Shown one piece after another: positions 29,484 to 48,041 of a stretch of DNA of 51,764 nucleotides (position 1 is its first letter; every line of letters begins with the position of its first letter). Below the pieces are notes generated by a model. The model made no database searches, had not been told where the DNA came from, and saw nothing but the letters and a program-made list of their open reading frames with translations. The DNA lies in assembly GCA_014237365.1 (NCBI GenBank), contig JABZFQ010000263.1, forward strand, positions 1 to 51,764, in the 5' to 3' direction. The position numbers and the translations under genes are program-made. The DNA is from Desulfobacteraceae bacterium (GTDB taxonomy: Bacteria > Desulfobacterota > Desulfobacteria > Desulfobacterales > ETH-SRB1).

Positions 29484-29532
29484 TTTTGGCTCCTGTTTGT
29501 TACGGCTTATTAGATGTTTATCCATCAACTTA

Positions 29533-32691: not shown

Positions 32692-32714
32692 GTTCATCAG
32701 TTGCCCATAGAAAA
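32614..32714 (+). repeat. Left copy of the ~100-bp direct repeat bracketing the CRISPR-Cas island
   Basis: Aligns with 46685-46784 with 7 substitutions and 1 indel (counted by eye). Covers the last 24 codons and stop of the OYE-USP gene plus the first 6 codons of the FAD-oxidoreductase frame. Confidence 0.9.
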
Positions 32715-32778
32715 GGGCGCATAATGCCGGCAAGATATAAGATCTCACCCCACCGATACGATGGTAGAAGGAGATATT

Positions 32779-33024: not shown

Positions 33025-33100
33025 TAGCACTGGTGGAATAATGGGAAGTCATATATATAAAAACTATTATGGATAAAATTTGAAAGGATTTTGTATTATT

Positions 33101-33679
33101 ATGTATTTTGTTAATTATCGAGGGCCGTTTGGATTTATTAAACCTTGGACCGCAGTGAGAGATAGTGAAACTTTTAGCCAACAGTTTTTAACACCTTCGA
33201 TAGTGGCAGGTATTGAAAGGAAACTGTTTCCCGATCTTTTATCTGAGCCATATGACTTGTATATAATTAAAAGGCACAGGTTGTCTTACAAACAAATTTC
33301 TCATCAGCAAGAACAAATCCAGCCCAGGGGATGGAATAAAAAAAACAACTGCTTTTACAGGCCATATTCGATAATAGTTAGGGGTGTTCTTATAGAGCCT
33401 GATTTGTATCTTGGATTTGACAATGAAAAAGATGCTATACATGCTGCAAAGCAACATATATGCGTTTGCAGGAATGAAGATATTTTATTTCCCAATGAAT
33501 CAATAATTAAAATTTCTGAGGAAGACTTTGATACTCAGGAGGATATTTTTAATGGTTTTGAATTAATATTTGAACAAAACGAACAGGCCTTTTTATTAGG
33601 ATATAACCGTTTTGATGATAATAAACCTATGTATGGATGGCTTAAAATCATCGGCAACCCCGTAAAATATATATGTTGA
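33101..33679 (+). CDS. cas5: Cas5 family protein
   Basis: The N-terminus YRGPFGFIKPWTAVRDSETFSQQFLTPSIVAGIERKLF resembles the Cas5 (I-C-like) glycine/aromatic plus TPSxxxGI motif. 192 aa from ATG 33101. Overlaps the cas3 start. Confidence 0.65.
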   Translation: MYFVNYRGPFGFIKPWTAVRDSETFSQQFLTPSIVAGIERKLFPDLLSEPYDLYIIKRHRLSYKQISHQQEQIQPRGWNKKNNCFYRPYSIIVRGVLIEPDLYLGFDNEKDAIHAAKQHICVCRNEDILFPNESIIKISEEDFDTQEDIFNGFELIFEQNEQAFLLGYNRFDDNKPMYGWLKIIGNPVKYIC

Positions 33680-35841
33680 TTATGGACATTTGTCATCACA
33701 TAAAAGCAAAAGGAGCTCCTGAGTTCACAACCTTATATGATCATCTTTATCATGTTAGATTGGCAATTGAAAAATTTGCTGAATGTTTGGATTTTGATGT
33801 TGAAATTGCAAAAATAGGGGCTGTTCTCCATGATATTGGAAAAGCAAGTCCAATTTTTCAAGAAAGACTTGTATCCAAATATAGGACTGGTCAGTCAACA
33901 TTCCGCCATGAAATTGCTTCATGCTTTTTTATTTCTCTAATCAAAGAGAAACACCAACCTCAGCTAATTGAAATGGTAATTGCTCATCACAAATCAATTG
34001 AAGGGGATAAAAAACTGAAGGGGATACTTGATCTTGAAGAAAATGAAGGTGATATTTTTGAATCCCACATAAAAAACTGGGATATTTGGAAACCGGATGC
34101 CCTGAAAATACTCTCTGCCTTTGGTATTAAAACCAGAGATATTTCTTATGACGAAGCTCATGATAATTATCTTAAAGTGTTAGACTATTGCGAGAAAAGA
34201 GTTGAGGATTATGGTTATTCAAGATGGCGTGGGCTACTTATGTCTGCGGATTATTTTGCTTCTGCCCTGTCTGAATCCACAAAGAAGTATTTGAAAAATA
34301 CATTTAAAAAACCTGTCTTGAATTTTTATAATAGAAAATCAGGATTTTATCCCTTGTCGCTGAAAAAAGCTATATCTGAAAAACCACACACAATTGTTGT
34401 TGCATGTACCGGTGCAGGAAAAACAGACTATCTTTTCAGGAGATGCAAGGGACGAGTATTTTACACACTTCCGTTTCAGGCATCAATTAATGCAATGTAT
34501 CAACGGGTTAAAAATGAGTTATTACCTTCAAATCCAGACCTGGATATTCGATTGCTTCATTCTTCTTCAAAAATAGCAGTTAATGATGAATCACAAGAAG
34601 ACATCGTTTTACAACGGCTCATTGGCTCCAGTGTCAAAATTCTAACTCCCTATCAATTAGCTTCTATCATATTCGGCACAAGGGGCTTTGAATTTCAAAT
34701 TGAAGATATCAAAGGTTGTGATGTCATTCTTGATGAAATTCATACTTATACAGGTGTTTCAAAGGCAATAGCTCTGAAAATTGTGGAAGCGCTGAATTAT
34801 TTTGGCTGTCGTATCCATATTGGCACAGCTACCATGCCTTCTTCATTATATGAAAAAATTATAACATTGCTGGGGAAAAATTCTATTGAGCAGGTTTTTT
34901 TGGATAAAACAGAGCTTGAAAAATTTGATCGTCATAAACTTTTTAAGATCAATTCATGGGAGGATTCAGACCAAATAATTGCTGATGCTGTCAAAAAAAA
35001 ACAAAAAGTATTGCTTATTTGTAACCGTGTAAAATCAGCTCAAAATGTTTTAATTAGAGCAAAGAACCTATTTCCTGATATTCCATCCCTTCTTATTCAC
35101 AGCAGATTTAAACGCGGAGACAGGTATGAAAAAGAAAAGAAACTTTTAGGCGTTGATAAAAATGGACACCCAACAGGTGAATTTAACACTTCATTGGATG
35201 CTTGTATCGTGGTCTCCACACAGGTTGTTGAAGTCAGCCTGGATATCAGTTTCGATCTTATGATTACGGAAACAGCCCCTATTGATTCCTTAATTCAACG
35301 TTTTGGAAGGGTGAACAGAAAAAGATCATCATCTACTATTGGCGTTTATAAGCCAATATATTTAATCGCGCCTCCAGAAGATAAAAAAAAAGCCGCTCCT
35401 TATGATTTGGAAATATTGAAAAATAGTTTTGAAGTCCTGGAACATAATAGCATTCTCCACGAATCTGATTATCAAAAAAAGATCGATCATGTTTTTCCTG
35501 CAATATCCAGTTTAGACATAGAAACTCATACAGCATTTAAAGGAGATGGCAAATGGAATATTGAAGCGCTCACTCACAGGGACAACTCTATATTGCTCAA
35601 TCTGCTTGAAATTGACAGCGTAAACTGCATTATTGAATCTGACTGTGAAAAGTACAAAGATGCAAACTATAAGGAACAAACCCTGATAGAAATACCAGTA
35701 AGATATTATTCTATTAAAGACTTCTCCCAGTTGAATTGTGGCAGTGACCCATTTGTTATACCAGATCAAGGATACTCTGATGAAATGGGGTTGGAAATCG
35801 ACAAGGCTAAATTACATCAAACAGACTTAAATTTTATTTGA
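33673..35841 (+). CDS. cas3: Cas3 HD nuclease-helicase fusion
   Basis: HD motifs (HLYHV, LHDIGK, FRHE, AHHKS). Helicase motifs ACTGAGKTD, VILDEIH, QRFGRVNRK. Confidence 0.9.
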   Translation: MLIMDICHHIKAKGAPEFTTLYDHLYHVRLAIEKFAECLDFDVEIAKIGAVLHDIGKASPIFQERLVSKYRTGQSTFRHEIASCFFISLIKEKHQPQLIEMVIAHHKSIEGDKKLKGILDLEENEGDIFESHIKNWDIWKPDALKILSAFGIKTRDISYDEAHDNYLKVLDYCEKRVEDYGYSRWRGLLMSADYFASALSESTKKYLKNTFKKPVLNFYNRKSGFYPLSLKKAISEKPHTIVVACTGAGKTDYLFRRCKGRVFYTLPFQASINAMYQRVKNELLPSNPDLDIRLLHSSSKIAVNDESQEDIVLQRLIGSSVKILTPYQLASIIFGTRGFEFQIEDIKGCDVILDEIHTYTGVSKAIALKIVEALNYFGCRIHIGTATMPSSLYEKIITLLGKNSIEQVFLDKTELEKFDRHKLFKINSWEDSDQIIADAVKKKQKVLLICNRVKSAQNVLIRAKNLFPDIPSLLIHSRFKRGDRYEKEKKLLGVDKNGHPTGEFNTSLDACIVVSTQVVEVSLDISFDLMITETAPIDSLIQRFGRVNRKRSSSTIGVYKPIYLIAPPEDKKKAAPYDLEILKNSFEVLEHNSILHESDYQKKIDHVFPAISSLDIETHTAFKGDGKWNIEALTHRDNSILLNLLEIDSVNCIIESDCEKYKDANYKEQTLIEIPVRYYSIKDFSQLNCGSDPFVIPDQGYSDEMGLEIDKAKLHQTDLNFI

Positions 35842-35853
35842 AAAGATATTATT

Positions 35854-37251
35854 ATGATCTCAATAAATGTTGGACGCATATTTTTAAAAGCTTTTAATGA
35901 AAAGAATAATAAATCATATTCCTCCAAGGAATTTTTTGAAAAAATCTTTTTTGACCTTTTTTTTAATCATTCCAAATATATGATCTGGCCCACAAACTCG
36001 CCTTTTGTACAGATGAAAAAAGGCCAAAAAATACATCTTTTAAGCGAAGAAGAAAGACATGATAAGCTGAATGAATTTTTCGTAAAGGCAAAAACAGAAA
36101 CACCTGATTCTAGTTTTGCTATTGGATTTCCTGCTTCAGAATTAAAAGAGTTTGCAACAACATCAGGGCTTGTAAGCGACCTGGAAATTCCTGCTGATGA
36201 ATCTGATATCTATTACTCATGGATCGGATCTGGTTTAGGGCTTGGAGTCTCAGGCGGGGTGTGTATTTTCTTTACTGACCCTGAAATTTTGCTAAAAATT
36301 TTTGAAGGTTGGTATGTTTATCGACATTTCTTGAATGACGAGAGTTTAGATAAACTTGCCCCCAATAAAATAAACAGTTGGAATGGACAATGGTTAAATT
36401 ATGCTTACAGCAAAAAATATAGAGAAAATTTTGATTTTGCAAGTTTGACCAATCAACAAGTCTTTATGCAGGAAAAAAGCGGGAGTGTTATAATTGAAAC
36501 GATTAAATGGAGTAAATTATTTTTCAATATTTCTAGACAATTTTCTGATCAAACATTAATGGGGTATGTTTACAGCTTAGGACAGACAAATAAAACACTG
36601 GGTTTCTTACCATTCCATTTTAAGCAGGCACAAAAGATTAAACATTTTTACAAACTTCTTTTTGGAGAAAACAACGTAATTAAGGATAGCGCTGCATATG
36701 AGGATATATATGGTGCTCATATAAAAAGGGCTTGTGAATTAGGAGTAATAGGACTCCATGCATTACAGCCGGAAGGCTTAAAACAATATTTTGCAGAAGG
36801 GAAAAAACCTGACTTCAAAAAACCAAACATTACGCCAAAAAAGGGGGAAGATGAAAATACATATAAGGTCAGGGAAGAAAAGGCATCTTTAAAGGATAAG
36901 GAGAAAGTTATTTTATTTAGAACCTATAAAACATGGTTGGTTGCTATGATTACAAAAAACAAAGAAGAAATGATTGATTATACAAAAGACGTTGCAATCG
37001 CTCTACATTCATATAGGGCAAAAGCTACAAAGACTGTCGCAAAAAATCTTATTGAAAAGGAACTGCTTGTTGCAAAATCCAAAAAGAAATTTATAGATGC
37101 CCTGGTGGAAATCGTGAAAGATACCCCAACAGAGTATCTGGAGACCTTTAAAGAACTGAAAAATCGAGTTCACCTTATGACATCGGAGGACTTCGGATAT
37201 TTTGTTGTTCTTCTCAGATTTGATTATGCTTATGAAGAAAGAAATATTTAA
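35854..37251 (+). CDS. Candidate Cascade large subunit (Cas8-like), family not recognised
   Basis: Assigned by position between cas3 and cas7, by size (465 aa), and by a Lys-rich helical C-terminal ~100 aa. I cannot match any motif to a named Cas8 family. Confidence 0.45.
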   Translation: MISINVGRIFLKAFNEKNNKSYSSKEFFEKIFFDLFFNHSKYMIWPTNSPFVQMKKGQKIHLLSEEERHDKLNEFFVKAKTETPDSSFAIGFPASELKEFATTSGLVSDLEIPADESDIYYSWIGSGLGLGVSGGVCIFFTDPEILLKIFEGWYVYRHFLNDESLDKLAPNKINSWNGQWLNYAYSKKYRENFDFASLTNQQVFMQEKSGSVIIETIKWSKLFFNISRQFSDQTLMGYVYSLGQTNKTLGFLPFHFKQAQKIKHFYKLLFGENNVIKDSAAYEDIYGAHIKRACELGVIGLHALQPEGLKQYFAEGKKPDFKKPNITPKKGEDENTYKVREEKASLKDKEKVILFRTYKTWLVAMITKNKEEMIDYTKDVAIALHSYRAKATKTVAKNLIEKELLVAKSKKKFIDALVEIVKDTPTEYLETFKELKNRVHLMTSEDFGYFVVLLRFDYAYEERNI

Positions 37252-37272
37252 CCAATGCGTTCAGGAGAGACT

Positions 37273-38331
37273 ATGCATACTATTTATATTAGAACTTTAA
37301 AAAAAGCAGAACACACTGTTTTTTGTGTTGCAAATGGACAGAAAACCTATTTTGATCCTCAATTTAACAGATTAGTACCATACTCCAGCGGGCAACAAAT
37401 AAAACGCTCAATTATTGACAGACTATCAACAGAATTAAATGAGATTCCAGCCCCTGTAACATTTCTGTTTGATGTGACTAAAAAAAAGGAAATTACAGAA
37501 GGTGAAGTTTTCGGCACATGTGACCCTTCTAATTTTGACCAGTTGCTTGGTGGCTGGATGAAAGCCATAAAAGGCGGAAAAGAAAAAACTATAAAACGAA
37601 GAAGTCCTTTTTCCATATCTGCAATGAGAGCGCTGCATCCATTACTTGCAGGTATCAATAAAGAGGACATTACTTTTGATAGAAGTGGGCGATCAAATAA
37701 TAAAGTTATCGTAAGAGATCCTGAAGGAAATTACCTTTCTGAAGATGATATCAGAAGTCTGCTTGAGGATAAGGATAGAAGTCTGGTTCGTAAATGGATA
37801 CCAGACCACAGGACAGTTACTGGTTTATTCGTTCAGGATATTGCAATTGATTTAAGACGTTTGTTTTGTATCAGTTTAAATATTTATGAGCCGGAAATAA
37901 ACCAGCCTACTGAAAAAAAATTAAGAGAAAATGGTTGGATTGAAGCAAAAAATATTTTCGGAGATTGCCTGGTGGCACCTCCAAAAACAAGAGAAAAGCT
38001 TATTCCTGCAATTTCCAAAGCAATTATTAACTGGCAGATAACCTCAAATCAATCCAGAACATTCAGTCTCATGGAAACTCTTGCAGTTGCAGTAAGTGAT
38101 AATGCTAATAAAATTGCAAGCAGTATCCGGGGAAAATTAAGTGAAGAAAATGAAAATAGAGCTGTCCCTGTAATAGAAGAAAATTTTGACGGGGTTGATA
38201 TCTTTATCACTCTTACTGCAGGAGGCTATGTCCTCACAAAGTCAGAAAAAGCTGACGCTTTAGAATTAGCAGAACAAAATATTATAAACAAAATAAATGC
38301 CTTTGATTATGAAAACCAATTGAATGGTTAG
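37273..38331 (+). CDS. cas7: Cas7 family (Cascade backbone) protein
   Basis: PYSSGQQIKRSIIDRL and RRSPFSISAMRALHP resemble Cas7 RRM-core motifs. Start at ATG 37273 with AGGAG 5 nt upstream. Confidence 0.65.
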   Translation: MHTIYIRTLKKAEHTVFCVANGQKTYFDPQFNRLVPYSSGQQIKRSIIDRLSTELNEIPAPVTFLFDVTKKKEITEGEVFGTCDPSNFDQLLGGWMKAIKGGKEKTIKRRSPFSISAMRALHPLLAGINKEDITFDRSGRSNNKVIVRDPEGNYLSEDDIRSLLEDKDRSLVRKWIPDHRTVTGLFVQDIAIDLRRLFCISLNIYEPEINQPTEKKLRENGWIEAKNIFGDCLVAPPKTREKLIPAISKAIINWQITSNQSRTFSLMETLAVAVSDNANKIASSIRGKLSEENENRAVPVIEENFDGVDIFITLTAGGYVLTKSEKADALELAEQNIINKINAFDYENQLNG

Positions 38332-38378
38332 TTTTAAATTTAAAATATTAAATACATGATTTATTATGAGGACATATT

Positions 38379-39176
38379 TTGCGTATTATAATAACTGCTA
38401 CAAGTGAACAGCCATCTTTTTTCCCATACAATTATCAGTACGCGGTACATTCAGCTATATACTCTCTAATGAATGAGTCTTCGGCTGAATATTCAGAATT
38501 TTTACATGATAATGGTTATATAAAAGATGGAATTAATAAAAAATTCAAATTTTTCACCTTCTCGAAACTTAAATTTTTTCCAAAAAAAAGAGATAGAAAA
38601 GGTTTTTATAATGTGAAAAAGATTCAGTTTGTATTTACTTCTTCTATGGATGAAAGCCTCAAACATTTAATATTAGGCATTTTTTCCAATCAAAAAATTA
38701 AATTAATATTAAATGGGCAAAAATGTGTTTTTACTATAGTTAATGTAGATATACAACCGGAACCAATCTTTAGCAATCGTGAAAAATTTATTTGTCTCTC
38801 ACCAATAGCTGTTACAACAATAAAGATCGACGAAAATGGGAAACGGAAGCAGCATTTCCTGAATTATATGATCCCAGAAGAAAGAGATCGTTTTGTTGAT
38901 AATCTTAAAAAAAATCTGATCAGGAAGTATGAAACGATTAATAATATTAAATATCAAAATTTAAACGATCACTTTAACTTTAATTTCGATATTTATTACA
39001 TAACAAAACGAAAAGGTAATATTTCAAAGTTAATGGAGTTTAAAAATAGAATTAAAATAAAAGCTATGGAGGCTCCTTTCAGCATTGAAGCTGATTCGGA
39101 ATTAATAAAGCTCGGTTACGAATGTGGCTGGGGTGAAAAAAATAGCGCTGGTTTTGGTTGTGTTGAACAAATTTAA
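38379..39176 (+). CDS. cas6: Cas6 crRNA endoribonuclease
   Basis: TTG start after GAGGA. The N-terminal PYNYQYAVHSAIY motif and the C-terminal Gly-rich loop GWGEKNSAGFGCV are typical of Cas6. Confidence 0.8.
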   Translation: MRIIITATSEQPSFFPYNYQYAVHSAIYSLMNESSAEYSEFLHDNGYIKDGINKKFKFFTFSKLKFFPKKRDRKGFYNVKKIQFVFTSSMDESLKHLILGIFSNQKIKLILNGQKCVFTIVNVDIQPEPIFSNREKFICLSPIAVTTIKIDENGKRKQHFLNYMIPEERDRFVDNLKKNLIRKYETINNIKYQNLNDHFNFNFDIYYITKRKGNISKLMEFKNRIKIKAMEAPFSIEADSELIKLGYECGWGEKNSAGFGCVEQI

Positions 39177-39730
39177 ATATCTTGGCCTGAATATAAAAAT
39201 TTGTTTTTTGATCAACAATAAATATTTTTTTGATCAATCAATATCAATTTAATTATATGATTGCAAAAAACAAATACGTATTCAATTCCCTTTCGACAAA
39301 ACAAAGCCACCCTTTTTGTTAAAGGTAAAATATAACAAAAGGTAACAATTATTATGGAAAGAATTATTAAAAAAATATAAATCAAGAGCAAAGAGATTTT
39401 TTAAAGGCTCTTGCTGATAAAGAAATTGAAATATTTACATTTTCAGACACAGAACGAAAAACAGGGGAATTATCCATCCTTATTCTGATATTTTATATAT
39501 TTTATCAAGCCATTTTGTTTTATTAGCAATTGTTAAATTTGGCAGCCAGAGCCTGTAAGCTCTGTTCTATTGGCGGGATGAGATAATTCCGTATTCTTGT
39601 TTGGAGACAAGTTTTGTTCGTTGATTTTAAGGAAGCATTTGACAACACTATCAGCAATTTTGAGGGTTAATTGTCCGATATGTTTTAGTTTTGTCTTAAC
39701 GTGTGATTGGCCGGAGGGAGAGAATTAATT

Positions 39731-40279
39731 ATGGAAAATGAAGTAAAACAACAAGAGCAGATAAAACTGCCACAGGAGTTTCAGTCTCTTATCGCCGGTT
39801 TTTTTCCTAACACAAAATATTTTGACAGCCGGTTTGATCTTTTACAGGTTCAAATTGATGAATCAAGAAGAAACCAGGAACAGATCAAGGATCAGCTTAG
39901 GGATTTTAAGGGCGATACTGATAAGCGCTTTGAGCAGGCCAAAGATCAGCTTAAGGATTTTAAGGGCGATGCTGATAAGCGCTTTGAGCAGGTGGATAAG
40001 CATTTTGAGCAGGTGGATAAGCGTTTTGAGCAGGTGGATAAGCGTTTTGAGCAGATGGATAAGCGTTTTGAGCAGGTGGATAAGCGTTTTGAGCAGGTGG
40101 ATCACAGGTTTCAGCGGCTTGAAGACAAAATAGACAATCTCATTGAACGTATTGATGTTAAGGTTGATAGCGGCTTAAAAGAAAACCGGAATCTGACTGT
40201 AAGACTTTTTACCTTTGCCCTCTCTTTTTCTCTTGTTGCTGTAGTTGGGATGTTTGGAAAACTTTTTGGGTTGTTTTAG
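39731..40279 (+). CDS. Tail-anchored coiled-coil protein with DKRFEQV heptad tandem repeats
   Basis: Two 18-aa repeats (KDQL[RK]DFKGD[TA]DKRFEQ[AV]). Six to seven DKRFEQV heptads. C-terminal hydrophobic helix LFTFALSFSLVAVVGMFGKLFGLF. Confidence 0.7.
   Translation: MENEVKQQEQIKLPQEFQSLIAGFFPNTKYFDSRFDLLQVQIDESRRNQEQIKDQLRDFKGDTDKRFEQAKDQLKDFKGDADKRFEQVDKHFEQVDKRFEQVDKRFEQMDKRFEQVDKRFEQVDHRFQRLEDKIDNLIERIDVKVDSGLKENRNLTVRLFTFALSFSLVAVVGMFGKLFGLF
39887..40120 (+). repeat. In-frame tandem repeats: 2 x 54 bp then 6-7 x 21 bp
   Basis: 21-bp units GATAAGCGTTTTGAGCAGGTG start at 39974, 39995, 40016, 40037, 40058 and 40079, with a degenerate unit at 40100. Confidence 0.9.
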
Positions 40280-40306
40280 GCGCTGGTAGGAAAAAATTAT
40301 TAGTTA

Positions 40307-40419
40307 GGAACGTGGACGAAATAACTTCCCCAAGTAGGCGCACAGATTTGGGTCGAATTTGTTTGATCTCAGATCACAAAAGTTGATGGAATAGCTTACC
40401 TATTTCAATATTTTTGGGA
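40307..40419 (+). mobile_element. MITE-A copy 10, truncated after ~113 bp
   Basis: TTA then GGAACGTGGACGAAATAACTTCCCCAAGTAGGCGCACAG... through ...CAATATTTTTGGGA. Confidence 0.85.
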
Positions 40420-40486
40420 GTCTTGTTCATTGATTTTAAGGAAGCATTTGACAACACTACCCGTATTTTTGAAGGAAATAGCTGAT

Positions 40487-41710
40487 ATGGACAAAATAGA
40501 ACTTTTAAAACTTATTAACAAAGGCGAATCCAGCTTTGTGGAATTCAAAGCAGATACACCGGATATTAAAGCGGAAACAATTGGGGAGTATGTTGTCTGT
40601 TTTGCAAATTCAAAGGGCGGAAAAATTCTGCTCGGCGTCGAAGATGACGGAACAATAACAGGACTGAAAGGCAGGTTTTCCGAATACGGTAAATGGATAT
40701 CAGACGCTGTTCAGGGCTGGGCACATCCAAATATTATTGTTGATTATGAGGAGGTGCCTGTAGAAGAAGATTTGCGGGTTGCCGTGATTACTGTGCCGAT
40801 GAGTGTCGCCAAGCCGTATTCCAAACGCAAGGGGAAGGATGCAAAGGAGCGTTACTATATTCGCGATGTCACCAGTTGTCGGGAAACAGATAGAGAAGAA
40901 CTAAGGCGTTTATTTCAAAGCTCAGGGATGATTCATTTTGAGGTGACGCCTGTGCCAAGGTCAAAACCGGAAGATTTGAATGAAACGCTGCTTGTGGAGT
41001 ATTTCAGGCGGGTCAGAGATATCGGTTATGACGATAAGCCAAAATGGCTTCGGCTTTTAATTGACAATCAGATACTTTCTGAAGAACTTGGTGCTGTTAA
41101 TTGTACTCTGGCAGGGCTTATTTTATTCGGCAAAAAGGATAGAGTTAAAAAATTAATTCCTCAAAGCGGTATTAGTGCTGTAGAATATGACTCTCCTGAT
41201 GCGGATGTGGCGGGTCGTTTTCGCAAAGAAATCAATGGACCCCTGATTTCGTTGCGTGAAAACTCGGGAGTTATTGCTGAAGAAGGCATAATTGACCAGG
41301 CTGTAAATTTCGTTTTAAGGGTACGGTCAAAAGAAAAAATTGAAGGTACAAGACGCGTGACTGAATATGCTTATCCCCCTGAGGTTCTGCGTGAAGCCAT
41401 TGTTAATGCCGTTGCCCACAGAGATTATACCATCGGTGGAACAAATATCGGCCTTTGGCTCTATCCTGACCGGTTTGAAATCGATAGTCCGGGCAATCTT
41501 CCAAACACTATCACAATAGAACGGATGAAAAGCGGCGCCCGCTATCACCGCAATCAAACGATTGTTGATTACCTGCGCGACATGAATTTTATCGAAGGCA
41601 GTGGCAGGGGTGTATCACGCAAAATCATCCGCGGTATGATTGAGCATAATGGCAAAGAGCCGGACTTTGAGCTAAGGGGCGAAGCATTAAGAGTTACTTT
41701 ATATGCTTAA
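40487..41710 (+). CDS. AlbA_2 (Schlafen-type) plus HATPase_c_4 domain protein (RecG-like putative DNA-binding regulator)
   Basis: Start MDKIELLKLINKGESSFVEFK, ...CFANSKGGKILLGVEDDGTITG (AlbA_2 signature). C-terminal EAIVNAVAHRDY...EIDSPGNLP...RNQTIVDYL (HATPase_c_4-like). Confidence 0.7.
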   Translation: MDKIELLKLINKGESSFVEFKADTPDIKAETIGEYVVCFANSKGGKILLGVEDDGTITGLKGRFSEYGKWISDAVQGWAHPNIIVDYEEVPVEEDLRVAVITVPMSVAKPYSKRKGKDAKERYYIRDVTSCRETDREELRRLFQSSGMIHFEVTPVPRSKPEDLNETLLVEYFRRVRDIGYDDKPKWLRLLIDNQILSEELGAVNCTLAGLILFGKKDRVKKLIPQSGISAVEYDSPDADVAGRFRKEINGPLISLRENSGVIAEEGIIDQAVNFVLRVRSKEKIEGTRRVTEYAYPPEVLREAIVNAVAHRDYTIGGTNIGLWLYPDRFEIDSPGNLPNTITIERMKSGARYHRNQTIVDYLRDMNFIEGSGRGVSRKIIRGMIEHNGKEPDFELRGEALRVTLYA

Positions 41711-41717
41711 AAATATT

Positions 41718-41950
41718 GTAACCGTTCACGGTTGTTGGTTCACAGTTCACAGTTTTTTCAATGAACTATGCAATGATTGAAGCATTTGCCTGGTTCCCAT
41801 GCTCCTGCGTGGGAACCCTCGCAGTATGCATTCCCACGCAGGAGCTATGGGAACGAAAAAGAAGATTCCCTGCACAGCACAGGCTACGGGCAATGCGCTC
41901 GCTATTGCGGTTCAACCGTGAACCGATAACTGTAAACCGTGAACGGTTAC
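41718..41950. repeat. Composite palindromic element: heptamer-repeat outer arms plus an inner 22-bp inverted repeat
   Basis: Outer arms gtaaccgttcacggttgttggttcacagttcacagtt / ggttcaaccgtgaaccgataactgtaaaccgtgaacggttac. Inner TTCCCATGCTCCTGCGTGGGAA (41794-41815) faces TTCCCACGCAGGAGCTATGGGAA (41831-41853). Confidence 0.8.
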
Positions 41951-41973
41951 AAAATATTTATGGACATTAGGTT

Positions 41974-42468
41974 ATGCAAAACCTGAATTTTACCGGCACC
42001 CAGATAAACTACTATTTTGTATGTCATCGCAAACTCTGGCTGTTTACAAAAGATATAAGATTTGAGGACGAAAACGAATATGTGCAATTGGGGCGGCTCA
42101 TTGATGAAAATACCTATAAGCGGAATAAAAAGCAGATTGAGATCGGCAAAATTAAAATTGATTTCATTGATAACAATGGCGTGATCCATGAAATTAAAAA
42201 ATCGAATAAAATTGAAAAGGCCCATATTCACCAGGTGAAATATTACATCCTTACATTAAAGAGAATGGGAGTTGAAAATATCACAGGTGAAATTGATTAT
42301 CCAAAACTGAAGAAAAGGGAAACGGTATTGCTGACGCCTGAGGATGAAAAGGAATTCGAAAAGATTTTTTCAGATATTCGGGAAATTCTGGATAAACCAA
42401 AACCGCCTGCTATAATTAAAAAAACTATATGCAAGAAATGTGCTTACTTTGAATTCTGCTTTGCATAA
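41974..42468 (+). CDS. cas4: Cas4 (RecB-like exonuclease with Fe-S Cys cluster)
   Basis: 164 aa. N-terminal YYFVCHRKLW and C-terminal CKKCAYFEFC cysteines. DxK-type core (IDF...HEIKKS). Confidence 0.85.
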   Translation: MQNLNFTGTQINYYFVCHRKLWLFTKDIRFEDENEYVQLGRLIDENTYKRNKKQIEIGKIKIDFIDNNGVIHEIKKSNKIEKAHIHQVKYYILTLKRMGVENITGEIDYPKLKKRETVLLTPEDEKEFEKIFSDIREILDKPKPPAIIKKTICKKCAYFEFCFA

Positions 42469-42485
42469 CCTGTATAAGGAATAAC

Positions 42486-43475
42486 ATGAAACAATCTTTA
42501 TATCTTTTTTCAAATTGTACGATTAAAAGGAAAGACAACACCCTGATGTTTGATATCGACGGAACAAAAAAATTCCGTCCTGTTGAAGCGGTTTCTGATA
42601 TTTTTCTTTTTGGTGAACATACCCTTAATACAAAGTTGCTGAATTTTTTGGGACAGCAGAAAATTCCTGTTCACATATTTAATTATTACGGATTTTACTC
42701 TGGTTCTTTTTTCCCAAGAGAACAATATCTTTCGGGACATGTCACAATCAGCCAGGCAAAGCATTATCTTGATAAGAAAAAAAGAATGCTTTTAGCCTAT
42801 GAATTTTTGAATGCAGCAGCTTCAAACATTCTTACAAACCTGACATATTACAATAACAGAGGAAGGAATGTCGGTGAAAAGATTCTGCAGGTAAAAGAAT
42901 TGAAAAAATCATTAAAAGCAGCAGATTCAATCTCATATTTAATGGGCATCGAAGGAAATATCAGGGAGTTGTATTATTCTGCTTTTAACGAAATTGTTCA
43001 AAATAAAATCGAATTTGAAAAACGTGTTAAAAGACCTCCTGACAATTTTATCAATTCACTGATTTCCTTTGGTAATTCCCTTATTTACACATCAATTCTG
43101 TCTGAAATTTACAGAACCCAGCTTAATCCTACTGTCAGTTTTCTCCATGAACCAGGATACAGGCGTTATTCCCTCGCGCTTGATATATCGGAAATTTTCA
43201 AACCTATCATCCTTGACAGAATGATCTTCACCATGATCAATAAAAATGAGTTGACTGAAAAAGATACGGAAAAAGACCTTAACTACTGCTATTTGAAAGA
43301 TAAAGGCAGGAAGAACTTTTTAAGAAAATATGATGAAAGGCTGAAAACAACTGTTAAACATAAAAATCTTAATCGGCATGTTTCTTACAAAAGACTTATC
43401 CGGCTTGAGTGTTATAAAATCGTTAAACATATTATTGGTGAAGAAAAATACACAGGGTTTAAGATGTGGTGGTAA
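42486..43475 (+). CDS. cas1: Cas1 integrase
   Basis: 329 aa with a typical I-B-like Cas1 layout (two-domain, ...GIEGN...LNPTVSFLHEPG...SLALDISEIFKP). Confidence 0.9.
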   Translation: MKQSLYLFSNCTIKRKDNTLMFDIDGTKKFRPVEAVSDIFLFGEHTLNTKLLNFLGQQKIPVHIFNYYGFYSGSFFPREQYLSGHVTISQAKHYLDKKKRMLLAYEFLNAAASNILTNLTYYNNRGRNVGEKILQVKELKKSLKAADSISYLMGIEGNIRELYYSAFNEIVQNKIEFEKRVKRPPDNFINSLISFGNSLIYTSILSEIYRTQLNPTVSFLHEPGYRRYSLALDISEIFKPIILDRMIFTMINKNELTEKDTEKDLNYCYLKDKGRKNFLRKYDERLKTTVKHKNLNRHVSYKRLIRLECYKIVKHIIGEEKYTGFKMWW

Positions 43476-43477
43476 TC

Positions 43478-43759
43478 ATGTATGTGATCGCAATGTACGA
43501 CATAAATACGGAAACAAAGGCTGGCAGGAGGAGGTTAAGGCAAATTTTTAAATTAATGAAAAAATATCTTATCCGAATTCAGAATTCTGTCTTTGAAGGA
43601 GAAATTACCAAAGCCAAATTTGAAGAAATGAAGTTAAAAGTTAACGATCTTATTGATAATACTATTGATTCAGTTATATTTTTCAAAAGTCGTGACATTA
43701 AATGGATGGATAAAGACATATGCGGCTTTGAAAAAGATGATACTGATAACTTTTTATGA
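43478..43759 (+). CDS. cas2: Cas2
   Basis: MYVIAMYDI...RIQNSVFEGEIT ferredoxin-like Cas2 pattern. The tracked ORF begins at GTG 43466, overlapping the cas1 stop. Confidence 0.88.
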   Translation: MYVIAMYDINTETKAGRRRLRQIFKLMKKYLIRIQNSVFEGEITKAKFEEMKLKVNDLIDNTIDSVIFFKSRDIKWMDKDICGFEKDDTDNFL

Positions 43760-43889
43760 AATATCTGCTCTTTGACAATTTGTAAAAAAACCGTCAATCT
43801 CCCTATGATTTTACATCATTGCAGGTTGACGGAAAAAACAGTTTGATTTATTAATGTAACTTATTATTTTTATATTATTTATTGGATGG
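43760..43889 (+). promoter_or_regulatory. CRISPR leader (AT-rich)
   Basis: 130 bp between the cas2 stop and the first repeat. Contains the inverted repeat ccgtcaa...ttgacgg and an A/T-rich repeat-proximal stretch. The degenerate repeat is at the opposite end of the array. Confidence 0.65.
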
Positions 43890-46685
43890 CTTTTAATCAG
43901 ACCAGAATGGAATTGAAACGAAAATTAATTTCAAGACTAAGTTCATTTGGCATCCGCTTTTAATCAGACCAGAATGGAATTGAAACTATAGTTTGTGCGA
44001 GCTGGATGAGAAATCAAAAGTCTTTTAATCAGACCAGAATGGAATTGAAACAATTTTATTTTGTATTGTTTTTTTTGTACGGTTAACTTTTAATCAGACC
44101 AGAATGGAATTGAAACATAATCAAGTCGATGTTCAGGAAGGTCATGTTGCCCCTTTTAATCAGACCAGAATGGAATTGAAACCCGATATGACGAGAACAA
44201 AGAAGCATTACATAGCGACTTTTAATCAGACCAGAATGGAATTGAAACATCACACAAAAATACCAGCCTGCAATTCGATCCAGCTTTTAATCAGACCAGA
44301 ATGGAATTGAAACGGCGGAGAATCCTTCCGATCAAACTGGGGCGGGGATCTTTTAATCAGACCAGAATGGAATTGAAACAAAATATAGAGCCAGATATCT
44401 GTCTGAATTTAAACTCTTTTAATCAGACCAGAATGGAATTGAAACTGATTTATTGCCGGCCTCCATTTCTGCATTAAGCTCCTTTTAATCAGACCAGAAT
44501 GGAATTGAAACCTGGGAACGGCAAATAAGAACGCCGTACACAGAGCTCTTTTAATCAGACCAGAATGGAATTGAAACTTATCTGCATCATCTCGAATCCT
44601 ATTATGCTTTATGCTTTTAATCAGACCAGAATGGAATTGAAACTCTTGTGTCCCAGTGGAAAACTGCTGCTTCGCCTGTCTTTTAATCAGACCAGAATGG
44701 AATTGAAACGATGAATTTTTTTATATCCTGCTTTTCTTCTTCATCCTTTTAATCAGACCAGAATGGAATTGAAACCACGTTTAGCGGGGTATACAGGTAC
44801 AGACAGAACGTCTTTTAATCAGACCAGAATGGAATTGAAACGTGTTCGACTTCCCAGACTTGTTTCAGTTCAGTGTGCTTTTAATCAGACCAGAATGGAA
44901 TTGAAACTCGAGCTCCCTTTGTCCTCACGATTGGCGCTCCCACTTTTAATCAGACCAGAATGGAATTGAAACGCTGGCACTCCTTGCAGTCGCTCTCGAA
45001 GAGCGTGCCTTTTAATCAGACCAGAATGGAATTGAAACCGCTCACTGTAAAGATTTCCGACACTGTCAGCGTTGCTTTTAATCAGACCAGAATGGAATTG
45101 AAACTCGAGCTCAAAAATGGTAAAGGTGCCTGGACTCTGACTTTTAATCAGACCAGAATGGAATTGAAACTTGGTCCATTAATAATAGGCGTAGCTTTTT
45201 TAGCATCTTTTAATCAGACCAGAATGGAATTGAAACTCGAAAGCACCCCCTGACACAATCATTTCGCTAATTCTTTTAATCAGACCAGAATGGAATTGAA
45301 ACAAATGGTGCTCCCGTTCGAGCTTGATATCCCTGCCCCTTTTAATCAGACCAGAATGGAATTGAAACACCCATTTATTCTTTTCAGAAGATTCAGAAGA
45401 TAACTTTTAATCAGACCAGAATGGAATTGAAACAAACCCGCCAGCGCCGGCAAGGGAAAACAACAAACACTTTTAATCAGACCAGAATGGAATTGAAACA
45501 GAGATCGCTTCTGAGGGCTTTTCTTTCTTTTCGACTTTTAATCAGACCAGAATGGAATTGAAACTATCCCATGGCTTTTTCACTAACGACAAAGCCTGAC
45601 TTTTAATCAGACCAGAATGGAATTGAAACATCGCAAATGACGCAGCTATGATTATTTGCGCTCTCCTTTTAATCAGACCAGAATGGAATTGAAACAGGCT
45701 AAACGAAACACGGATCCAGTTTGGTTACGGCTTTTAATCAGACCAGAATGGAATTGAAACGCATTTCGACACCCCATGTCGGTTTTCTTTACACCTCCTT
45801 TTAATCAGACCAGAATGGAATTGAAACCGGCCTTGTTTTACGCAGGCTCTCGTTAGGAGCTCGCTTTTAATCAGACCAGAATGGAATTGAAACCCGTGAA
45901 AATGACGCTTTCCCCCTCCTCTGAGTACTCTTTTAATCAGACCAGAATGGAATTGAAACGTCGCTCGTAATAAGCCCGCTCGTCTGCACACCATTCTTTT
46001 AATCAGACCAGAATGGAATTGAAACTTTTTTGTCTCCTTTTTTAGGTTGTTTTTTATCTGCTTTTAATCAGACCAGAATGGAATTGAAACTAGCTGTGAG
46101 TTTATTGTAGCTGTTTTATTGAGCGCCTTTTAATCAGACCAGAATGGAATTGAAACCGACGACTCTATGAGCGACTAACAGATCGCAAATTACTTTTAAT
46201 CAGACCAGAATGGAATTGAAACCAAATTGTCAGCGAATTGTGGCTGATAATCATTAAACTTTTAATCAGACCAGAATGGAATTGAAACCGTTAAACCTAA
46301 CTGCCTGGTTTTAATGATGATCAGCTTTTAATCAGACCAGAATGGAATTGAAACAGCTCGGTCGCCTTGGATAGATCAAGTTGTGCCTGACTTTTAATCA
46401 GACCAGAATGGAATTGAAACAGGAACGCAAATAGTATAAAATCGAGGTATTTACCTTCTTTTAATCAGACCAGAATGGAATTGAAACTTAGCCCAAAGCT
46501 GAAAGTGGCTACAAGTGGAGGAGCTTTTAATCAGACCAGAATGGAATTGAAACAACCTTCTTCTGTGATCCTGAGATACCCTCGAACATCTTTTAATCAG
46601 ACCAGAATGGAATTGAAACCGGGGAACGACCTCGGCAGGTATTGGCGTTTGGACGCTTTTAATCAGGCCAGAATGGAAGAGCATA
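43890..46685 (+). CRISPR. CRISPR array: 43 repeats of 30 bp (CTTTTAATCAGACCAGAATGGAATTGAAAC), 42 spacers of 35-37 bp
   Basis: Each repeat start was located by hand (43890, 43957, 44022 ... 46590). The terminal repeat at 46656 is degenerate (CTTTTAATCAGGCCAGAATGGAAGAGCATA). The repeat ends in ATTGAAAC, the classical Cas6-generated 8-nt handle. Confidence 0.97.
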
Positions 46686-46784
46686 TCAGGTTTTGTTTGG
46701 AAGTGTATCAAACAAAATCGTTCAAAATACGAAAGATTGCACTGTGTGGGTGGTTGAATGAGCTCATCTGTTGCCATAGAAAAG
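46685..46784 (+). repeat. Right copy of the ~100-bp direct repeat bracketing the CRISPR-Cas island
   Basis: See 32614-32714. Contains an orphan copy of the USP C-terminal coding sequence (QVLFGSVSNKIVQNTKDCTVWVVE*) and the genuine start of the FAD-oxidoreductase gene. Confidence 0.9.
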
Positions 46785-48041
46785 ATAGGAATAATAGGTG
46801 GGGGGATAGGTGGTCTGTTTTTAACCTCATATATTGTCCAAAACTGGCCTGACTATCCGGATATATACCTGTTTGACCCAAGATTTGATGAAAGGGGAGA
46901 AGCACGCACCAGCCGTACGTCAGGGTTTGTTTATCAAGGCTGGGCCGGTTCATACGGTATCCCGCACGTTGATCCTTCAATCGTTGTGCATAAAATTTAT
47001 ACAATAACATTTCATAAAGGTTCTAAAAGTGTCGAGATTTCTGACCCGCTTGGACGAAAGATTTGTATAATAAACCGCAATCCTGTCTGGATGAATGGAA
47101 GGTTAATTCCAAGCATATATCAGCATATACGGACATATATCTCCAAGTATGAAAGAATACATTTTCTTCCTTTCAGAGTGAATGATATTTATTTCCCTCA
47201 TGGCCAGGGTTCGAACGGAAATTTTAAAATCCTGTGTAATGATTATGACGGAAAAAAGCATCAGATAGACGTGAACGGAGTTGTTTTTACTACACTGCCA
47301 TCTAAAATAAAGGAAATACTATCGAAAAAAATTGGATACAGGCCTCCAAAAACATGGCCTGGAGCTGTTTTTGATGTTTATCTTAAAAAAGAGGAATGGC
47401 TCCCAAAGTACCAGACACTCCATAAATTTTTTGTTGGTGGCGGGAAAATTCATACAATAGATTTGATACCAAAACGTGATACGCTTACGATCATGGCTTT
47501 AGGAAAAGGCGCTACAATGCCGGTTTTATACGAGCATATTGATAAGAATCCTGATATACAAAGATGCTTGCCTGAGCATTGGAGAACCCGCATAGTTGAA
47601 GGCAGTGCAGGCACCCTTAATATACCTGTCACTTCAGCAAAAAATGCCGTATCAGATGGTATAGCATGTCTTGGAGGGCATGTATTTGGAGCGCTGTTAA
47701 TTAACGGCGGACTTTATACCAATTTATGGGCAGCAGAATTTCTGGCTAAAGCAATTAAAAAAAGGGGTTTTCATAAAAAGGGTCTTGAAAGGCTTTATTT
47801 TGCAAAATTGAAAAAGATTCTCTGTTTTCAGAACTTAATCGGAAAGACAATTTATATGCTGACAGACAGTTTTCTTCTTCCTTCTACTATCATATCTTAC
47901 TTTCTTTTTCGTAAATTTGTAAAAGAAAAAGAACTTGCTCCTGAAAAAAGGATATTGACGAGGTTTGCATGGGATCTCTTGATTGGAGAGGAGTCTTTTT
48001 CGCAGGTATTGATTAGGTTTTTAAGGGGATTATCAATATAA
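46758..48041 (+). CDS. FAD/NAD(P)-binding oxidoreductase
   Basis: N-terminal dinucleotide fold KIGIIGGGIGGLF. 427 aa. The ATG overlaps the orphan USP stop (ATGA). Confidence 0.65.
   Translation: MSSSVAIEKIGIIGGGIGGLFLTSYIVQNWPDYPDIYLFDPRFDERGEARTSRTSGFVYQGWAGSYGIPHVDPSIVVHKIYTITFHKGSKSVEISDPLGRKICIINRNPVWMNGRLIPSIYQHIRTYISKYERIHFLPFRVNDIYFPHGQGSNGNFKILCNDYDGKKHQIDVNGVVFTTLPSKIKEILSKKIGYRPPKTWPGAVFDVYLKKEEWLPKYQTLHKFFVGGGKIHTIDLIPKRDTLTIMALGKGATMPVLYEHIDKNPDIQRCLPEHWRTRIVEGSAGTLNIPVTSAKNAVSDGIACLGGHVFGALLINGGLYTNLWAAEFLAKAIKKRGFHKKGLERLYFAKLKKILCFQNLIGKTIYMLTDSFLLPSTIISYFLFRKFVKEKELAPEKRILTRFAWDLLIGEESFSQVLIRFLRGLSI

What the first reader, a model, noticed from the sequence alone, without database searches (positions are those of the whole stretch)
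39177..41973. 2.8-kb non-cas insert splits the effector and adaptation modules and carries an AlbA_2/Schlafen-type gene plus a tail-anchored repeat protein
Seen in the sequence: between the cas6 stop and the cas4 start lie 530 bp of AT-rich non-coding DNA, a coiled-coil tail-anchored protein gene, a truncated MITE-A copy, an AlbA_2 + HATPase_c_4 gene and a 230-bp composite palindrome. Both genes run in the same direction as the cas genes. Established knowledge: AlbA_2/Schlafen-like domains recur in prokaryotic defence islands, and CRISPR loci often host accessory or regulatory genes. Inference: the pair could be a CRISPR-linked accessory, regulatory or independent defence module, or simply hitch-hiking mobile cargo. 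The association is worth testing because it sits inside an otherwise compact cas operon.
Basis: partly seen in the sequence, partly recalled or inferred. Interest (0 to 1): 0.66.

Follow-up and report, generated by a model that had tools for sequence, protein, structure and literature searches.

The report
Cargo hot spot inside a cas operon
The 2.8-kb stretch between cas6 and cas4 is real, but it is a patchwork of separately acquired and partly decayed passengers (a toxin-antitoxin relic, a repeat-rich membrane protein gene, a Schlafen-ATPase gene, a MITE and a palindrome), not a CRISPR accessory module.

Summary

- **It is an insert.** In relatives with 60-80% identical cas genes, cas6 and cas4 lie 15-195 nt apart.
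- **It was built stepwise.**
  - Two contigs with 81-90% identical cas6 carry an AbiEi/AbiEii-like pair at this site. The window keeps only a 35-codon AbiEi relic inside the "non-coding" AT-rich DNA.
  - A 90%-identical locus (L013) has the coiled-coil gene, only a 41-nt fragment of the AlbA_2 gene, and no MITE.
  - Two decayed loci keep the coiled-coil gene next to cas6 and cas4 fragments.
- **The AlbA_2 + HATPase_c_4 gene** is an intact stand-alone Schlafen + GHKL ATPase ("Schlatpase"). Ten distinct homologue contexts contain no cas genes and no coiled-coil gene.
- **The coiled-coil gene** belongs to a very conserved, multi-copy Desulfobacterales family with variable repeat number. It is scattered through housekeeping and transposon contexts.

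The two genes are not a pair and are not CRISPR-linked. The junction is a hot spot for gene turnover. The Schlatpase is probably an autonomous abortive-infection tRNase (inferred). The function of the coiled-coil protein is unknown.

The parts
38379..39176 (+). cas6 (type I-B), left boundary of the insert
   Evidence: Cas6b 2e-56 in PADLOC; Cas_Cas6_C 2e-28 in Pfam
39177..39354 (.). AT-rich intergenic DNA that is ancestral to this clade, with a 22-nt tandem repeat at 39204-39250
   Evidence: Conserved after cas6 in L012 and L013 (89-90%). Part of it (39279-39375) lies in the 195-nt cas6-cas4 gap of L014/L015. TRF result.
39371..39475 (+). Relic (35 codons) of an AbiEi-like antitoxin gene
   Evidence: tblastn with the L019 264-aa protein gives 66% identity, E 1e-8. 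The intact gene, followed by an AbiEii-like ORF, sits directly after cas6 in L019 and L027.
39518..39730 (+). Leader of the coiled-coil gene, including copy 1 of the 57-nt repeat (39610-39666)
   Evidence: 93% identical to L013 2305-2495. It travels with the coiled-coil gene in L008, L013 and L030.
39731..40279 (+). Gene for a tail-anchored coiled-coil protein (182 aa) with variable 7-aa (DKRFEQV) and 18-aa repeats
   Evidence: Tandem repeats. 6091 homologues, whose lengths step by 7 aa. Invariant N- and C-terminal blocks. Helix 28-145 plus hydrophobic helix 151-178. pN/pS 0.11-0.25, and 0.49 against the L030 copy.
40304..40421 (+). Truncated MITE-A copy (left terminal inverted repeat only), a recent insertion
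   Evidence: Matches the family with copies at 1477, 2562, 17821, 18723, 20418, 22783, 29525, 30838. Absent from the orthologous point in L013, where the coiled-coil gene's stop region abuts the second leader copy.
40419..40480 (+). Copy 2 of the 57-nt leader repeat, now in front of the Schlafen-ATPase gene
   Evidence: 88% identical to 39610-39666; 92% identical to L013 2931-2991
40487..41710 (+). Stand-alone Schlafen (AlbA_2) + GHKL ATPase gene ('Schlatpase'), 407 aa, intact
   Evidence: Pfam PF04326 1.2e-20 and PF13749 8.9e-21. All family-invariant residues present. Model pLDDT 86, matching 3LMM (5e-21), Schlafen nuclease domains and histidine-kinase/PDK-type GHKL domains. pN/pS 0.14 against L001.
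41711..41973 (.). Nested palindrome: an outer hairpin of a dispersed repeat with a second palindromic repeat in its loop
   Evidence: Inverted repeats I1, I5 and I7. Fold -121 kcal/mol, z -10.4. A simple version of the outer hairpin lies at 6669-6745. Inner repeat copies occur in L010, L011 and L013.
41974..42468 (+). cas4, right boundary of the insert
   Evidence: Cas_Cas4 1e-58. Homology with insert-free relatives resumes at 41948-41953.

Best explanation
The cas6-cas4 junction of this type I-B locus is a hot spot where unrelated genes and small repeats have been inserted, duplicated and deleted. What sits there now is a layered deposit, not a functional unit.

**The layers**
1. The ancestral AT-rich spacer.
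2. A 35-codon relic of an AbiEi/AbiEii-like toxin-antitoxin module.
3. One copy of a resident, multi-copy gene for a tail-anchored coiled-coil protein, together with its leader.
4. A second copy of part of that leader, followed by a stand-alone Schlafen + GHKL ATPase gene.
5. A recently inserted, truncated MITE.
6. A nested palindromic repeat.

**How the genes probably work (inferred)**
- The Schlafen-ATPase gene is intact and under purifying selection. [quoted passage not shown] This is inferred from the SLFN-pAgo work, not shown here.
- The coiled-coil protein is a conserved membrane-anchored protein of unknown role. Its presence here reflects the mobility of its gene family, not a link to CRISPR.
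- Neither gene is needed by the cas genes, and neither needs them.
For: **It is an insert.** cas6 and cas4 are 15-50 nt apart in L016-L024 and 195 nt apart in L014/L015, with the same gene order.

**Stepwise history.**
- L019 and L027 (cas6 81-90% identical) have an AbiEi/AbiEii-like pair at this site. The window keeps a 35-aa relic of it.
- L013 (cas6 and cas4 90-91% identical) carries the leader and coiled-coil gene and the second leader copy. It keeps only 41 nt of the Schlafen gene and the right part of the palindrome, and it has no MITE.
- L008 is a decayed locus: cas6 fragment, two coiled-coil genes, cas4 fragments, one CRISPR repeat.
- L030 has repeated units of a cas4 5' fragment plus a coiled-coil gene outside any cas locus.

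**No co-occurrence.**
- Schlafen-ATPase homologues at 89%, 84%, 73%, 67%, 64% and about 40% identity sit in ten different contexts without cas or coiled-coil genes.
- DNA similarity to the closest ones covers only 40467-41713.
- Coiled-coil genes lie beside housekeeping or transposase genes.
- The 79-locus scan gave no cas association.

**The genes are functional.**
- pN/pS is 0.11-0.25 for most comparisons, and 0.49 for the coiled-coil gene against L030.
- All invariant Schlafen and GHKL residues are present.
- The fold matches both domain types.

**Composition.** The inserted genes (GC 0.41-0.44) resemble the host background (0.39-0.41). The cas genes (0.33) are the outlier.

**Mechanism lead.** Preprint 10.64898/2026.05.29.728809.
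Against: - The coiled-coil gene stays next to cas6 and/or cas4 sequence in four independent samples (window, L013, L008, L030). This could reflect selection rather than inheritance.
- Weickert et al. (PMC13462974) report a cluster of Schlafen-ATPase proteins tightly associated with type I CRISPR. A 2025 preprint (10.1101/2025.09.30.679098) reports AlbA_2-wHTH proteins near type I loci. A functional link therefore exists for some relatives, and I could not place this protein in their tree.
- My neighbourhood sample is small: ten contexts for the Schlafen gene.
- No expression data are available.
- The abortive-infection mechanism is transferred from a fusion protein that has its own sensor. No sensor is evident here.
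Confidence: 0.75

Rival explanations
1. One or both genes are true accessories of this type I-B system. For example, the Schlafen-ATPase could be a back-up effector or regulator triggered by Cascade/Cas3. The membrane protein could be a CRISPR-linked effector, transcribed with the cas operon.
For: - Same strand as the cas genes, and placed exactly between the effector and adaptation modules.
- Published reports of Schlafen-ATPase and AlbA_2-wHTH proteins associated with type I loci.
- The coiled-coil gene is kept at this junction in four samples.
Against: - Insert-free relatives have the same complete gene set.
- The closest homologues of both genes lie outside cas loci.
- L013 lost the Schlafen gene but kept intact cas6, cas7 and cas4.
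- The coiled-coil gene survives intact in loci whose cas genes have decayed (L008, L030), so it does not depend on them.
- The protein lacks the wHTH or DNA-binding domain described for the type I-associated forms.
Confidence: 0.1
2. The coiled-coil membrane protein and the Schlafen-ATPase form a two-gene defence system of their own (membrane sensor or anchor plus nuclease) that happened to land in the cas operon.
For: - The genes are adjacent and co-oriented.
- Both are preceded by the same 57-nt repeat, which could give common regulation.
- Both are under purifying selection.
Against: - They do not co-occur anywhere else.
  - 0 of 10 Schlafen-ATPase contexts hold a coiled-coil gene.
  - 1 of 79 coiled-coil-like loci holds a weak (24% identity) AlbA_2-like hit on the opposite strand.
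- L008 and L013 keep the coiled-coil gene without the nuclease.
- DNA similarity to the nearest Schlafen loci stops at the CDS.
Confidence: 0.07
3. The AlbA_2 protein is a DNA-binding transcription regulator, as many database names suggest ('putative DNA binding domain-containing protein'), controlling cas4-cas1-cas2 or the array.
For: - Source annotations of homologues.
- Its position immediately upstream of the adaptation genes.
Against: - No HTH domain was detected. The protein ends with the GHKL domain.
- The Schlafen acidic residues and the ATPase motifs are all conserved, which points to an enzyme.
- Homologues are not found next to cas genes.
Confidence: 0.05

Closest known systems
Stand-alone 'Schlatpase' proteins (SLFN_AlbA_2 + GHKL ATPase PF13749; bioRxiv 10.64898/2026.05.29.728809), with DIP2311 (PDB 3LMM) as the solved relative
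   Same: - Same two domains in the same order.
- All family-invariant residues are present.
- The size is typical of the small stand-alone forms.
- The fold matches 3LMM over the whole length.
   Different: - No C-terminal HTH, which the preprint reports for more than 90% of C-terminal tails.
- No fused Argonaute, NACHT or restriction-modification subunit, so the trigger is unknown.
Cash, the CRISPR-associated Schlafen of type III systems (PMC13462974)
   Same: A Schlafen nuclease domain encoded inside a CRISPR-Cas locus.
   Different: - Cash carries a Csx15 cyclic-oligoadenylate sensor and depends on Cas10.
- This protein has a GHKL ATPase instead, and the locus is type I-B with no cas10.
Schlafen-ATPase 'Cluster 1' associated with type I CRISPR (PMC13462974) and AlbA_2-wHTH proteins near type I loci (bioRxiv 10.1101/2025.09.30.679098)
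   Same: Schlafen plus ATPase architecture next to type I cas genes.
   Different: - No DNA-binding domain here.
- The nearest homologues of this protein are not cas-linked.
- Membership in that cluster could not be checked because its sequences are not held.
Defence islands and hot spots of defence-gene turnover
   Same: Different cargo occupies one conserved site in close relatives: an AbiE-like toxin-antitoxin pair, a Schlafen nuclease, MITEs. There is rapid gain and loss.
   Different: The hot spot lies inside a cas operon, at the boundary between the effector and adaptation modules. It is not beside a tRNA gene or integrase, and no recombinase gene lies in the insert.
Tail-anchored coiled-coil repeat proteins such as Borrelia Bdr or phage XhlA (analogy recalled from my own knowledge)
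   Same: A small protein with a long helical repeat region of variable copy number and a C-terminal membrane anchor, encoded by a multi-copy gene family.
   Different: No sequence relationship was detected. All Pfam, NCBIfam and PHROG hits are sub-threshold coiled-coil noise.

Membership tests
Schlatpase (Schlafen + GHKL ATPase supradomain) | N-terminal SLFN_AlbA_2 domain (PF04326) | tested here: met
   74.6 bits against a cutoff of 25.3, E 1.2e-20. The model matches SLFN5/11/12/13/14 and SAMD9 nuclease domains.
Schlatpase (Schlafen + GHKL ATPase supradomain) | GHKL-type ATPase domain (PF13749) after the Schlafen domain | tested here: met
   74.1 bits against a cutoff of 26, E 8.9e-21. Invariant E303, N307, A308, H311, R312, D313, S334, G336 and G375 are present. 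The C-terminal half matches histidine-kinase, BCKDK and PDK catalytic domains.
Schlatpase (Schlafen + GHKL ATPase supradomain) | Conserved acidic Schlafen active-site residues | tested here: met
   E14, E19 and E52-D53-D54 are invariant or nearly invariant across 21 homologues. Equating them with the SLFN11 catalytic triad is my inference.
Schlatpase (Schlafen + GHKL ATPase supradomain) | ATP-driven oligomerisation and tRNA cleavage | not testable with these tools
   Shown only for the SLFN-pAgo RzAgo in the preprint.
Cash (type III CRISPR-associated Schlafen) | Csx15/CARF-like cyclic-oligoadenylate sensor domain fused to the Schlafen domain | tested here: not met
   Only PF04326 and PF13749 were detected, and the whole length is accounted for.
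Cash (type III CRISPR-associated Schlafen) | Type III (cas10) locus | tested here: not met
   The locus is type I-B: cas3, cas8b, cas7b, cas5b.
Type I CRISPR-associated Schlafen-ATPase / AlbA_2-wHTH | C-terminal DNA-binding (wHTH) domain | tested here: not met
   No HTH hit. The protein ends at the end of PF13749.
Type I CRISPR-associated Schlafen-ATPase / AlbA_2-wHTH | Recurrent linkage of homologues to type I cas genes | tested here: not met
   0 of 10 distinct homologue contexts contain cas genes. The sample is small.
SLFN-pAgo | Argonaute core (PAZ, MID, PIWI) fused to the Schlatpase | tested here: not met
   The protein has 407 aa. It aligns only to positions 54-433 of the 1121-position PADLOC pAgo profile.
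CreTA (CRISPR-regulated toxin-antitoxin RNA pair in type I-B operons) | A degenerate CRISPR-repeat-like creA element within the cas operon | tested here: not met
   The best match to the repeat in 32700-43880 is 19 of 30, the same as in shuffled sequence.
AbiE (AbiEi/AbiEii) toxin-antitoxin | Intact AbiEi antitoxin and AbiEii nucleotidyltransferase genes | tested here: not met
   Only a 35-codon AbiEi-like fragment remains in the window. The intact genes in L019/L027 hit AbiEi_4 and AbiEi_1 just below the Pfam cutoffs. The AbiEii identity of the next ORF rests on its motif, read by eye.
MITE | Both terminal inverted repeats and a target-site duplication | tested here: not met
   The left end and about 120 nt match the family. 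The right terminal inverted repeat is missing and no duplication is visible. It is a truncated copy.
Named coiled-coil families (DUF1664, XhlA, JetC and others) for the 182-aa protein | Score above the family's curated cutoff | tested here: not met
   The best Pfam hit, DUF1664, scores 28 bits against a cutoff of 34.6. All others are further below.

The most novel reading that the evidence does not exclude
The boundary between the effector and adaptation modules of this type I-B clade may be a preferred docking site. Defence cargo placed there (an AbiE pair, a Schlafen-ATPase) would be expressed by read-through with the cas genes, giving co-regulated layered immunity. The extremely conserved, repeat-variable, tail-anchored protein would then be a new membrane-associated partner, kept at the junction by selection rather than by descent alone.
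Probability: 0.12. Interest if true: 0.6.

Novelty: new member of a known kind. Interest (0 to 1): 0.3.

Why it matters
- It shows that gene adjacency inside a cas operon is not evidence of a CRISPR accessory. At this junction, close relatives carry different cargo, decayed cargo or none.
- It gives a dated series of states for one junction: empty, AbiE pair, coiled-coil gene plus Schlafen-ATPase, and decay. This is useful for studying how cas operons gain and lose passengers.
- It provides an intact minimal Schlafen-ATPase without an HTH as a candidate for testing how stand-alone forms are triggered.
- It flags an uncharacterised, highly conserved family of repeat-variable membrane proteins in sulfate-reducing Desulfobacterales.

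Tried and rejected
- **CreTA-like RNA module.** No CRISPR-repeat-like sequence in the operon beyond chance.
- **Known RNA families in the non-coding parts.** Only sub-threshold hits.
- **Promoters.** Fewer sigma-70-like sites than in shuffled sequence, and none in the 57-nt repeat, so no claim is made about separate transcription.
- **Plasmid origin.** Only short matches to the heptad repeat in Vibrio plasmids.
- **Phage origin.** No close relative of either gene in IMG/VR. A PHROG family does match the Schlafen-ATPase.
- **Self-targeting spacers.** None of the 41 spacers matches the window or the fetched loci.
- **Defined transposable unit carrying the genes.** Rejected, because similarity to other loci stops at the CDS ends.
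- **57-nt repeat as a reverse-transcriptase fragment.** It reads [VI]DFKEAFDNT in frame, but it is too short to test and is left unresolved.
- **Supplementary data of PMC13462974.** Not held, so the protein could not be placed in the published type I-associated cluster.
Full report
**Observation**

The window holds a complete type I-B CRISPR-Cas locus.
- The genes are cas5b, cas3b, cas8b, cas7b and cas6b (33080-39176), followed by cas4, cas1 and cas2 (41974-43759).
- An array of 42 identical 30-nt repeats spans 43890-46619.

- **AT-rich stretch without long ORFs.** GC is 0.24 for 39177-39517.
- **Gene for a 182-aa protein.**
  - The real start is the ATG at 39731, behind a GGAGGGAG ribosome-binding site.
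  - It contains 21-bp and 54-bp tandem repeats that encode DKRFEQV heptads and an 18-residue unit.
  - The model shows one long helix followed by a hydrophobic C-terminal helix.
- **Truncated MITE copy** at about 40304-40421, from a family with at least ten copies in the window.
- **Gene for a 407-aa protein.** The real start is the ATG at 40487. Pfam finds SLFN_AlbA_2 and HATPase_c_4 domains, both at about 1e-20.
- **Nested palindrome of 263 bp.** It folds at -121 kcal/mol, z = -10.4.

- A 57-nt direct repeat precedes both genes.
- The AT-rich DNA contains a gene relic (described below).

**It is an insert, and it was built in steps**

A metagenome scan with Cas6 returned 16 related loci.
- **cas genes 60-80% identical (L016-L024).** The gene order is the same, and cas6 and cas4 are 15-50 nt apart.
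- **L014 and L015 (79-85% identical).** The gap is 195 nt and contains a homologue of window 39279-39375.
- **L019 and L027 (cas6 81-90% identical).** Directly after cas6 these carry a 264-aa AbiEi-like gene.
  - It hits AbiEi_4, AbiEi_1 and DUF6088 just below the Pfam cutoffs.
  - It is followed by an ORF with the AbiEii-type motif.
  - Window 39371-39475 is a 35-codon relic of that antitoxin gene (66% identity, E 1e-8).
- **L013 (cas6 90%, cas4 91% identical).** Its order is as follows:
  1. cas6.
  2. The shared AT-rich DNA.
  3. A fragment of the inner palindromic repeat.
  4. The leader and a 129-aa version of the coiled-coil gene.
  5. The second leader copy, directly abutting, with no MITE.
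  6. 208 nt of unrelated sequence.
  7. A 41-nt fragment of the AlbA_2 gene (matching window 40721-40761).
  8. The right part of the palindrome.
  9. cas4.

  So the common ancestor of the window and L013 already had the AlbA_2 gene. L013 lost it by deletion, and the MITE entered the window lineage later.
- **L008.** This is a decayed version of the same locus in a different genomic place. It consists of the cas6 3' end, two coiled-coil genes separated by another repeat element and a leader copy, cas4 fragments and a single CRISPR repeat.
- **L030.** It has a leader copy and repeated units of a cas4 5' fragment plus a coiled-coil gene, next to a HIRAN-domain gene and outside any cas locus.

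**The Schlafen-ATPase gene**

The protein has both Pfam domains and all residues that are invariant in an alignment of 21 homologues.
- The Schlafen domain keeps G13-E14, E19-F20-K21 and G50-V-E52-D53-D54-G55.
- The GHKL ATPase keeps E303, N307, A308, H311-R312-D313, S334-P-G336 and G375.

An AlphaFold model (pLDDT 86) gave these matches.
- The uncharacterised DIP2311 protein, PDB 3LMM, over its full length (5e-21).
- Mammalian Schlafen and SAMD9 nuclease domains in the N-terminal part.
- Histidine-kinase and PDK-type catalytic domains in the C-terminal part.

This architecture was recently named the 'Schlatpase' supradomain.
- It occurs in about 60,000 prokaryotic proteins, most of them small stand-alone proteins with or without an HTH.
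- In a Schlafen-Argonaute fusion, ATP binding drives tetramerisation, and the assembled Schlafen domains cut tRNA to cause abortive infection (bioRxiv 10.64898/2026.05.29.728809).
- The window's protein is under purifying selection (pN/pS 0.14 against its 89%-identical relative).

Its homologues are not cas-linked.
- **L001, L002, L107 (84-89% identical).** They sit next to TRAP transporter genes, a large unrelated ORF, or transposases and a second Schlatpase. Fragments of restriction-enzyme and zeta-toxin genes (read by eye from the sequence, not tested) and an SbcD-like gene lie nearby.
- **The 64-73% relatives.** They sit between xanthine-dehydrogenase-like and tricorn protease genes, or between a fatty-acid operon and an RND pump.
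- **Three relatives at about 40% identity.** One follows an RHH and SMC-like ATPase pair, one follows leuS near a zeta/ParD pair, and one is near an integrase and HipA.
- None of these ten contexts has cas genes or a coiled-coil gene.
- DNA similarity between the window and the nearest loci covers only 40467-41713.

**The coiled-coil gene**

The protein search returned 6091 hits, mostly from Desulfobacterales and other Thermodesulfobacteriota.
- The N-terminal 60 and C-terminal 60 residues are nearly invariant.
- The middle varies by whole heptads and 18-residue units, so lengths run 129, 136, 143 ... and 147, 154 ... 182.
- The family is multi-copy: two genes in L008, and two loci in one MAG (L029, L030).
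- Outside the lineage of this locus it lies beside housekeeping genes (L029: mdh, wecB, a carboxylase subunit; L009: rhodanese, cobalamin genes) or transposases (L010).
- In 79 genome loci (975 kb) with coiled-coil-like genes, Cas proteins matched only L030, a relic of this junction, and one distant Bacillota locus. An AlbA_2-like sequence matched once, at 24% identity.
- No named family reaches its cutoff.
- pN/pS is 0.11-0.25 for most pairs and 0.49 against L030.
- Synonymous divergence from L013 is 0.09, lower than for the flanking cas6 (0.23) and cas4 (0.32). This hints at exchange among copies.

**Interpretation**

The two genes are independent passengers.
- The site has held at least three unrelated cargoes in close relatives (AbiE-like pair, coiled-coil gene, Schlatpase), plus MITEs and palindromic repeats. 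Each has been gained and lost on the time scale of 10-20% cas divergence.
- The inserted genes have host-like GC (0.41-0.44 against 0.39-0.41). The cas genes are the outlier at 0.33.
- About 105 nt of the 3' end of the upstream gene is repeated after the array, so the whole locus looks like an acquired cassette.
- I infer that the second leader copy marks an earlier tandem duplication of the leader and coiled-coil gene, as seen in L008. In this model the second coding region was replaced by the Schlatpase cassette around a short TTTTGA(A/G)GG similarity. This step is a model, not shown.
- The Schlatpase probably works alone as an abortive-infection nuclease. The trigger is unknown, because no sensor domain or partner is evident.

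**Comparison with what is known**

- It is not Cash, the type III CRISPR-associated Schlafen. It has no Csx15 sensor and the locus has no cas10.
- It is not a Schlafen-Argonaute.
- A Schlafen-ATPase cluster tightly associated with type I CRISPR has been reported (PMC13462974), as have AlbA_2-wHTH proteins near type I loci (bioRxiv 10.1101/2025.09.30.679098). This protein lacks the DNA-binding domain and its close relatives lack the linkage. I could not check membership in that cluster directly.
- There is no CreTA-like element.

**Verdict**

- The 'CRISPR-linked pair' reading is not supported.
- The 'cargo, possibly independent defence' reading is supported.
- Interest is modest. The value lies in the reconstructed turnover series and in two candidates for experiments: a minimal stand-alone Schlatpase and an uncharacterised conserved membrane protein family.

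Noticed in passing
window 32610-32718 and 46680-46790: A direct repeat of about 105 nt (92% identical). The 3' end of the OYE-Usp fusion gene (31066-32691), plus about 25 nt, recurs right after the last CRISPR repeat. The whole 14-kb CRISPR-Cas locus is therefore bracketed like an inserted cassette. The cas genes also have lower GC (0.33) than the surroundings (0.39-0.41).
   Followed up: partly
window 32761-33024: An 87-codon N-terminal fragment of a second cas6 (56% identical to the cas6 N-terminus; Cas6_I-A 5.6e-9) lies upstream of cas5. It is absent at that position in the related loci L016-L024.
   Followed up: partly
window 39371-39475; L019 509-1549; L027 325-1121: The AT-rich 'non-coding' DNA after cas6 contains a 35-codon relic of an AbiEi-like antitoxin gene. 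Two related contigs have the intact gene, followed by an AbiEii-like ORF, at the same site.
   Followed up: yes
window 39610-39666 and 40419-40475; also L013, L008, L030: The 57-nt repeat in front of both genes reads [VI]DFKEAFDNT...FEG-stop in frame in every copy. This resembles a reverse-transcriptase motif. It may be a gene fragment or a regulatory leader; the question is unresolved.
   Followed up: partly
window 1477, 2562, 2703, 17821, 18723, 20418, 22783, 29525-29602, 30838, 40301: A MITE family of about 160-170 nt with terminal inverted repeats of about 35 nt (AGGAACGTGGACGAAATAACTTCCCCAA...) is very abundant in the window. One site (29507-29626) shows two ends back to back.
   Followed up: partly
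window 25825-25918: Tandem repeats: the heptamer TAATCCC in 7 copies, followed by an 11-mer (CTGCCCTTAAT) in 3.4 copies.
   Followed up: no
window 6669-6745: A simple version of the outer hairpin of the palindrome (CGGTTCACAGTTCACAG arms around a T8 loop) sits at a gene end. The 41711-41973 element is therefore this dispersed hairpin with another palindromic repeat inserted in its loop.
   Followed up: partly
window 50343-51764; L009 2167-3654; L010 5397-7178: Genes of the AAA-ATPase_like + PDDEXK_9 type lie within 1-2 kb of coiled-coil genes in L009 and L010/L011. One is also present in the window, about 10 kb downstream. This may only reflect their abundance in these genomes.
   Followed up: no
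L113 7067-11227: In one genome a distant Schlatpase homologue directly follows, with a small overlap, an RHH protein and an 898-aa SMC/AAA_23-like ATPase. This looks like a possible three-gene defence operon.
   Followed up: no
L008 2408-4822: A decayed CRISPR-Cas locus lies between phoU and surA in a related metagenome contig. It consists of the cas6 3' end, two coiled-coil genes, cas4 fragments and one repeat. The locus is therefore at a different genomic site from the window's.
   Followed up: yes
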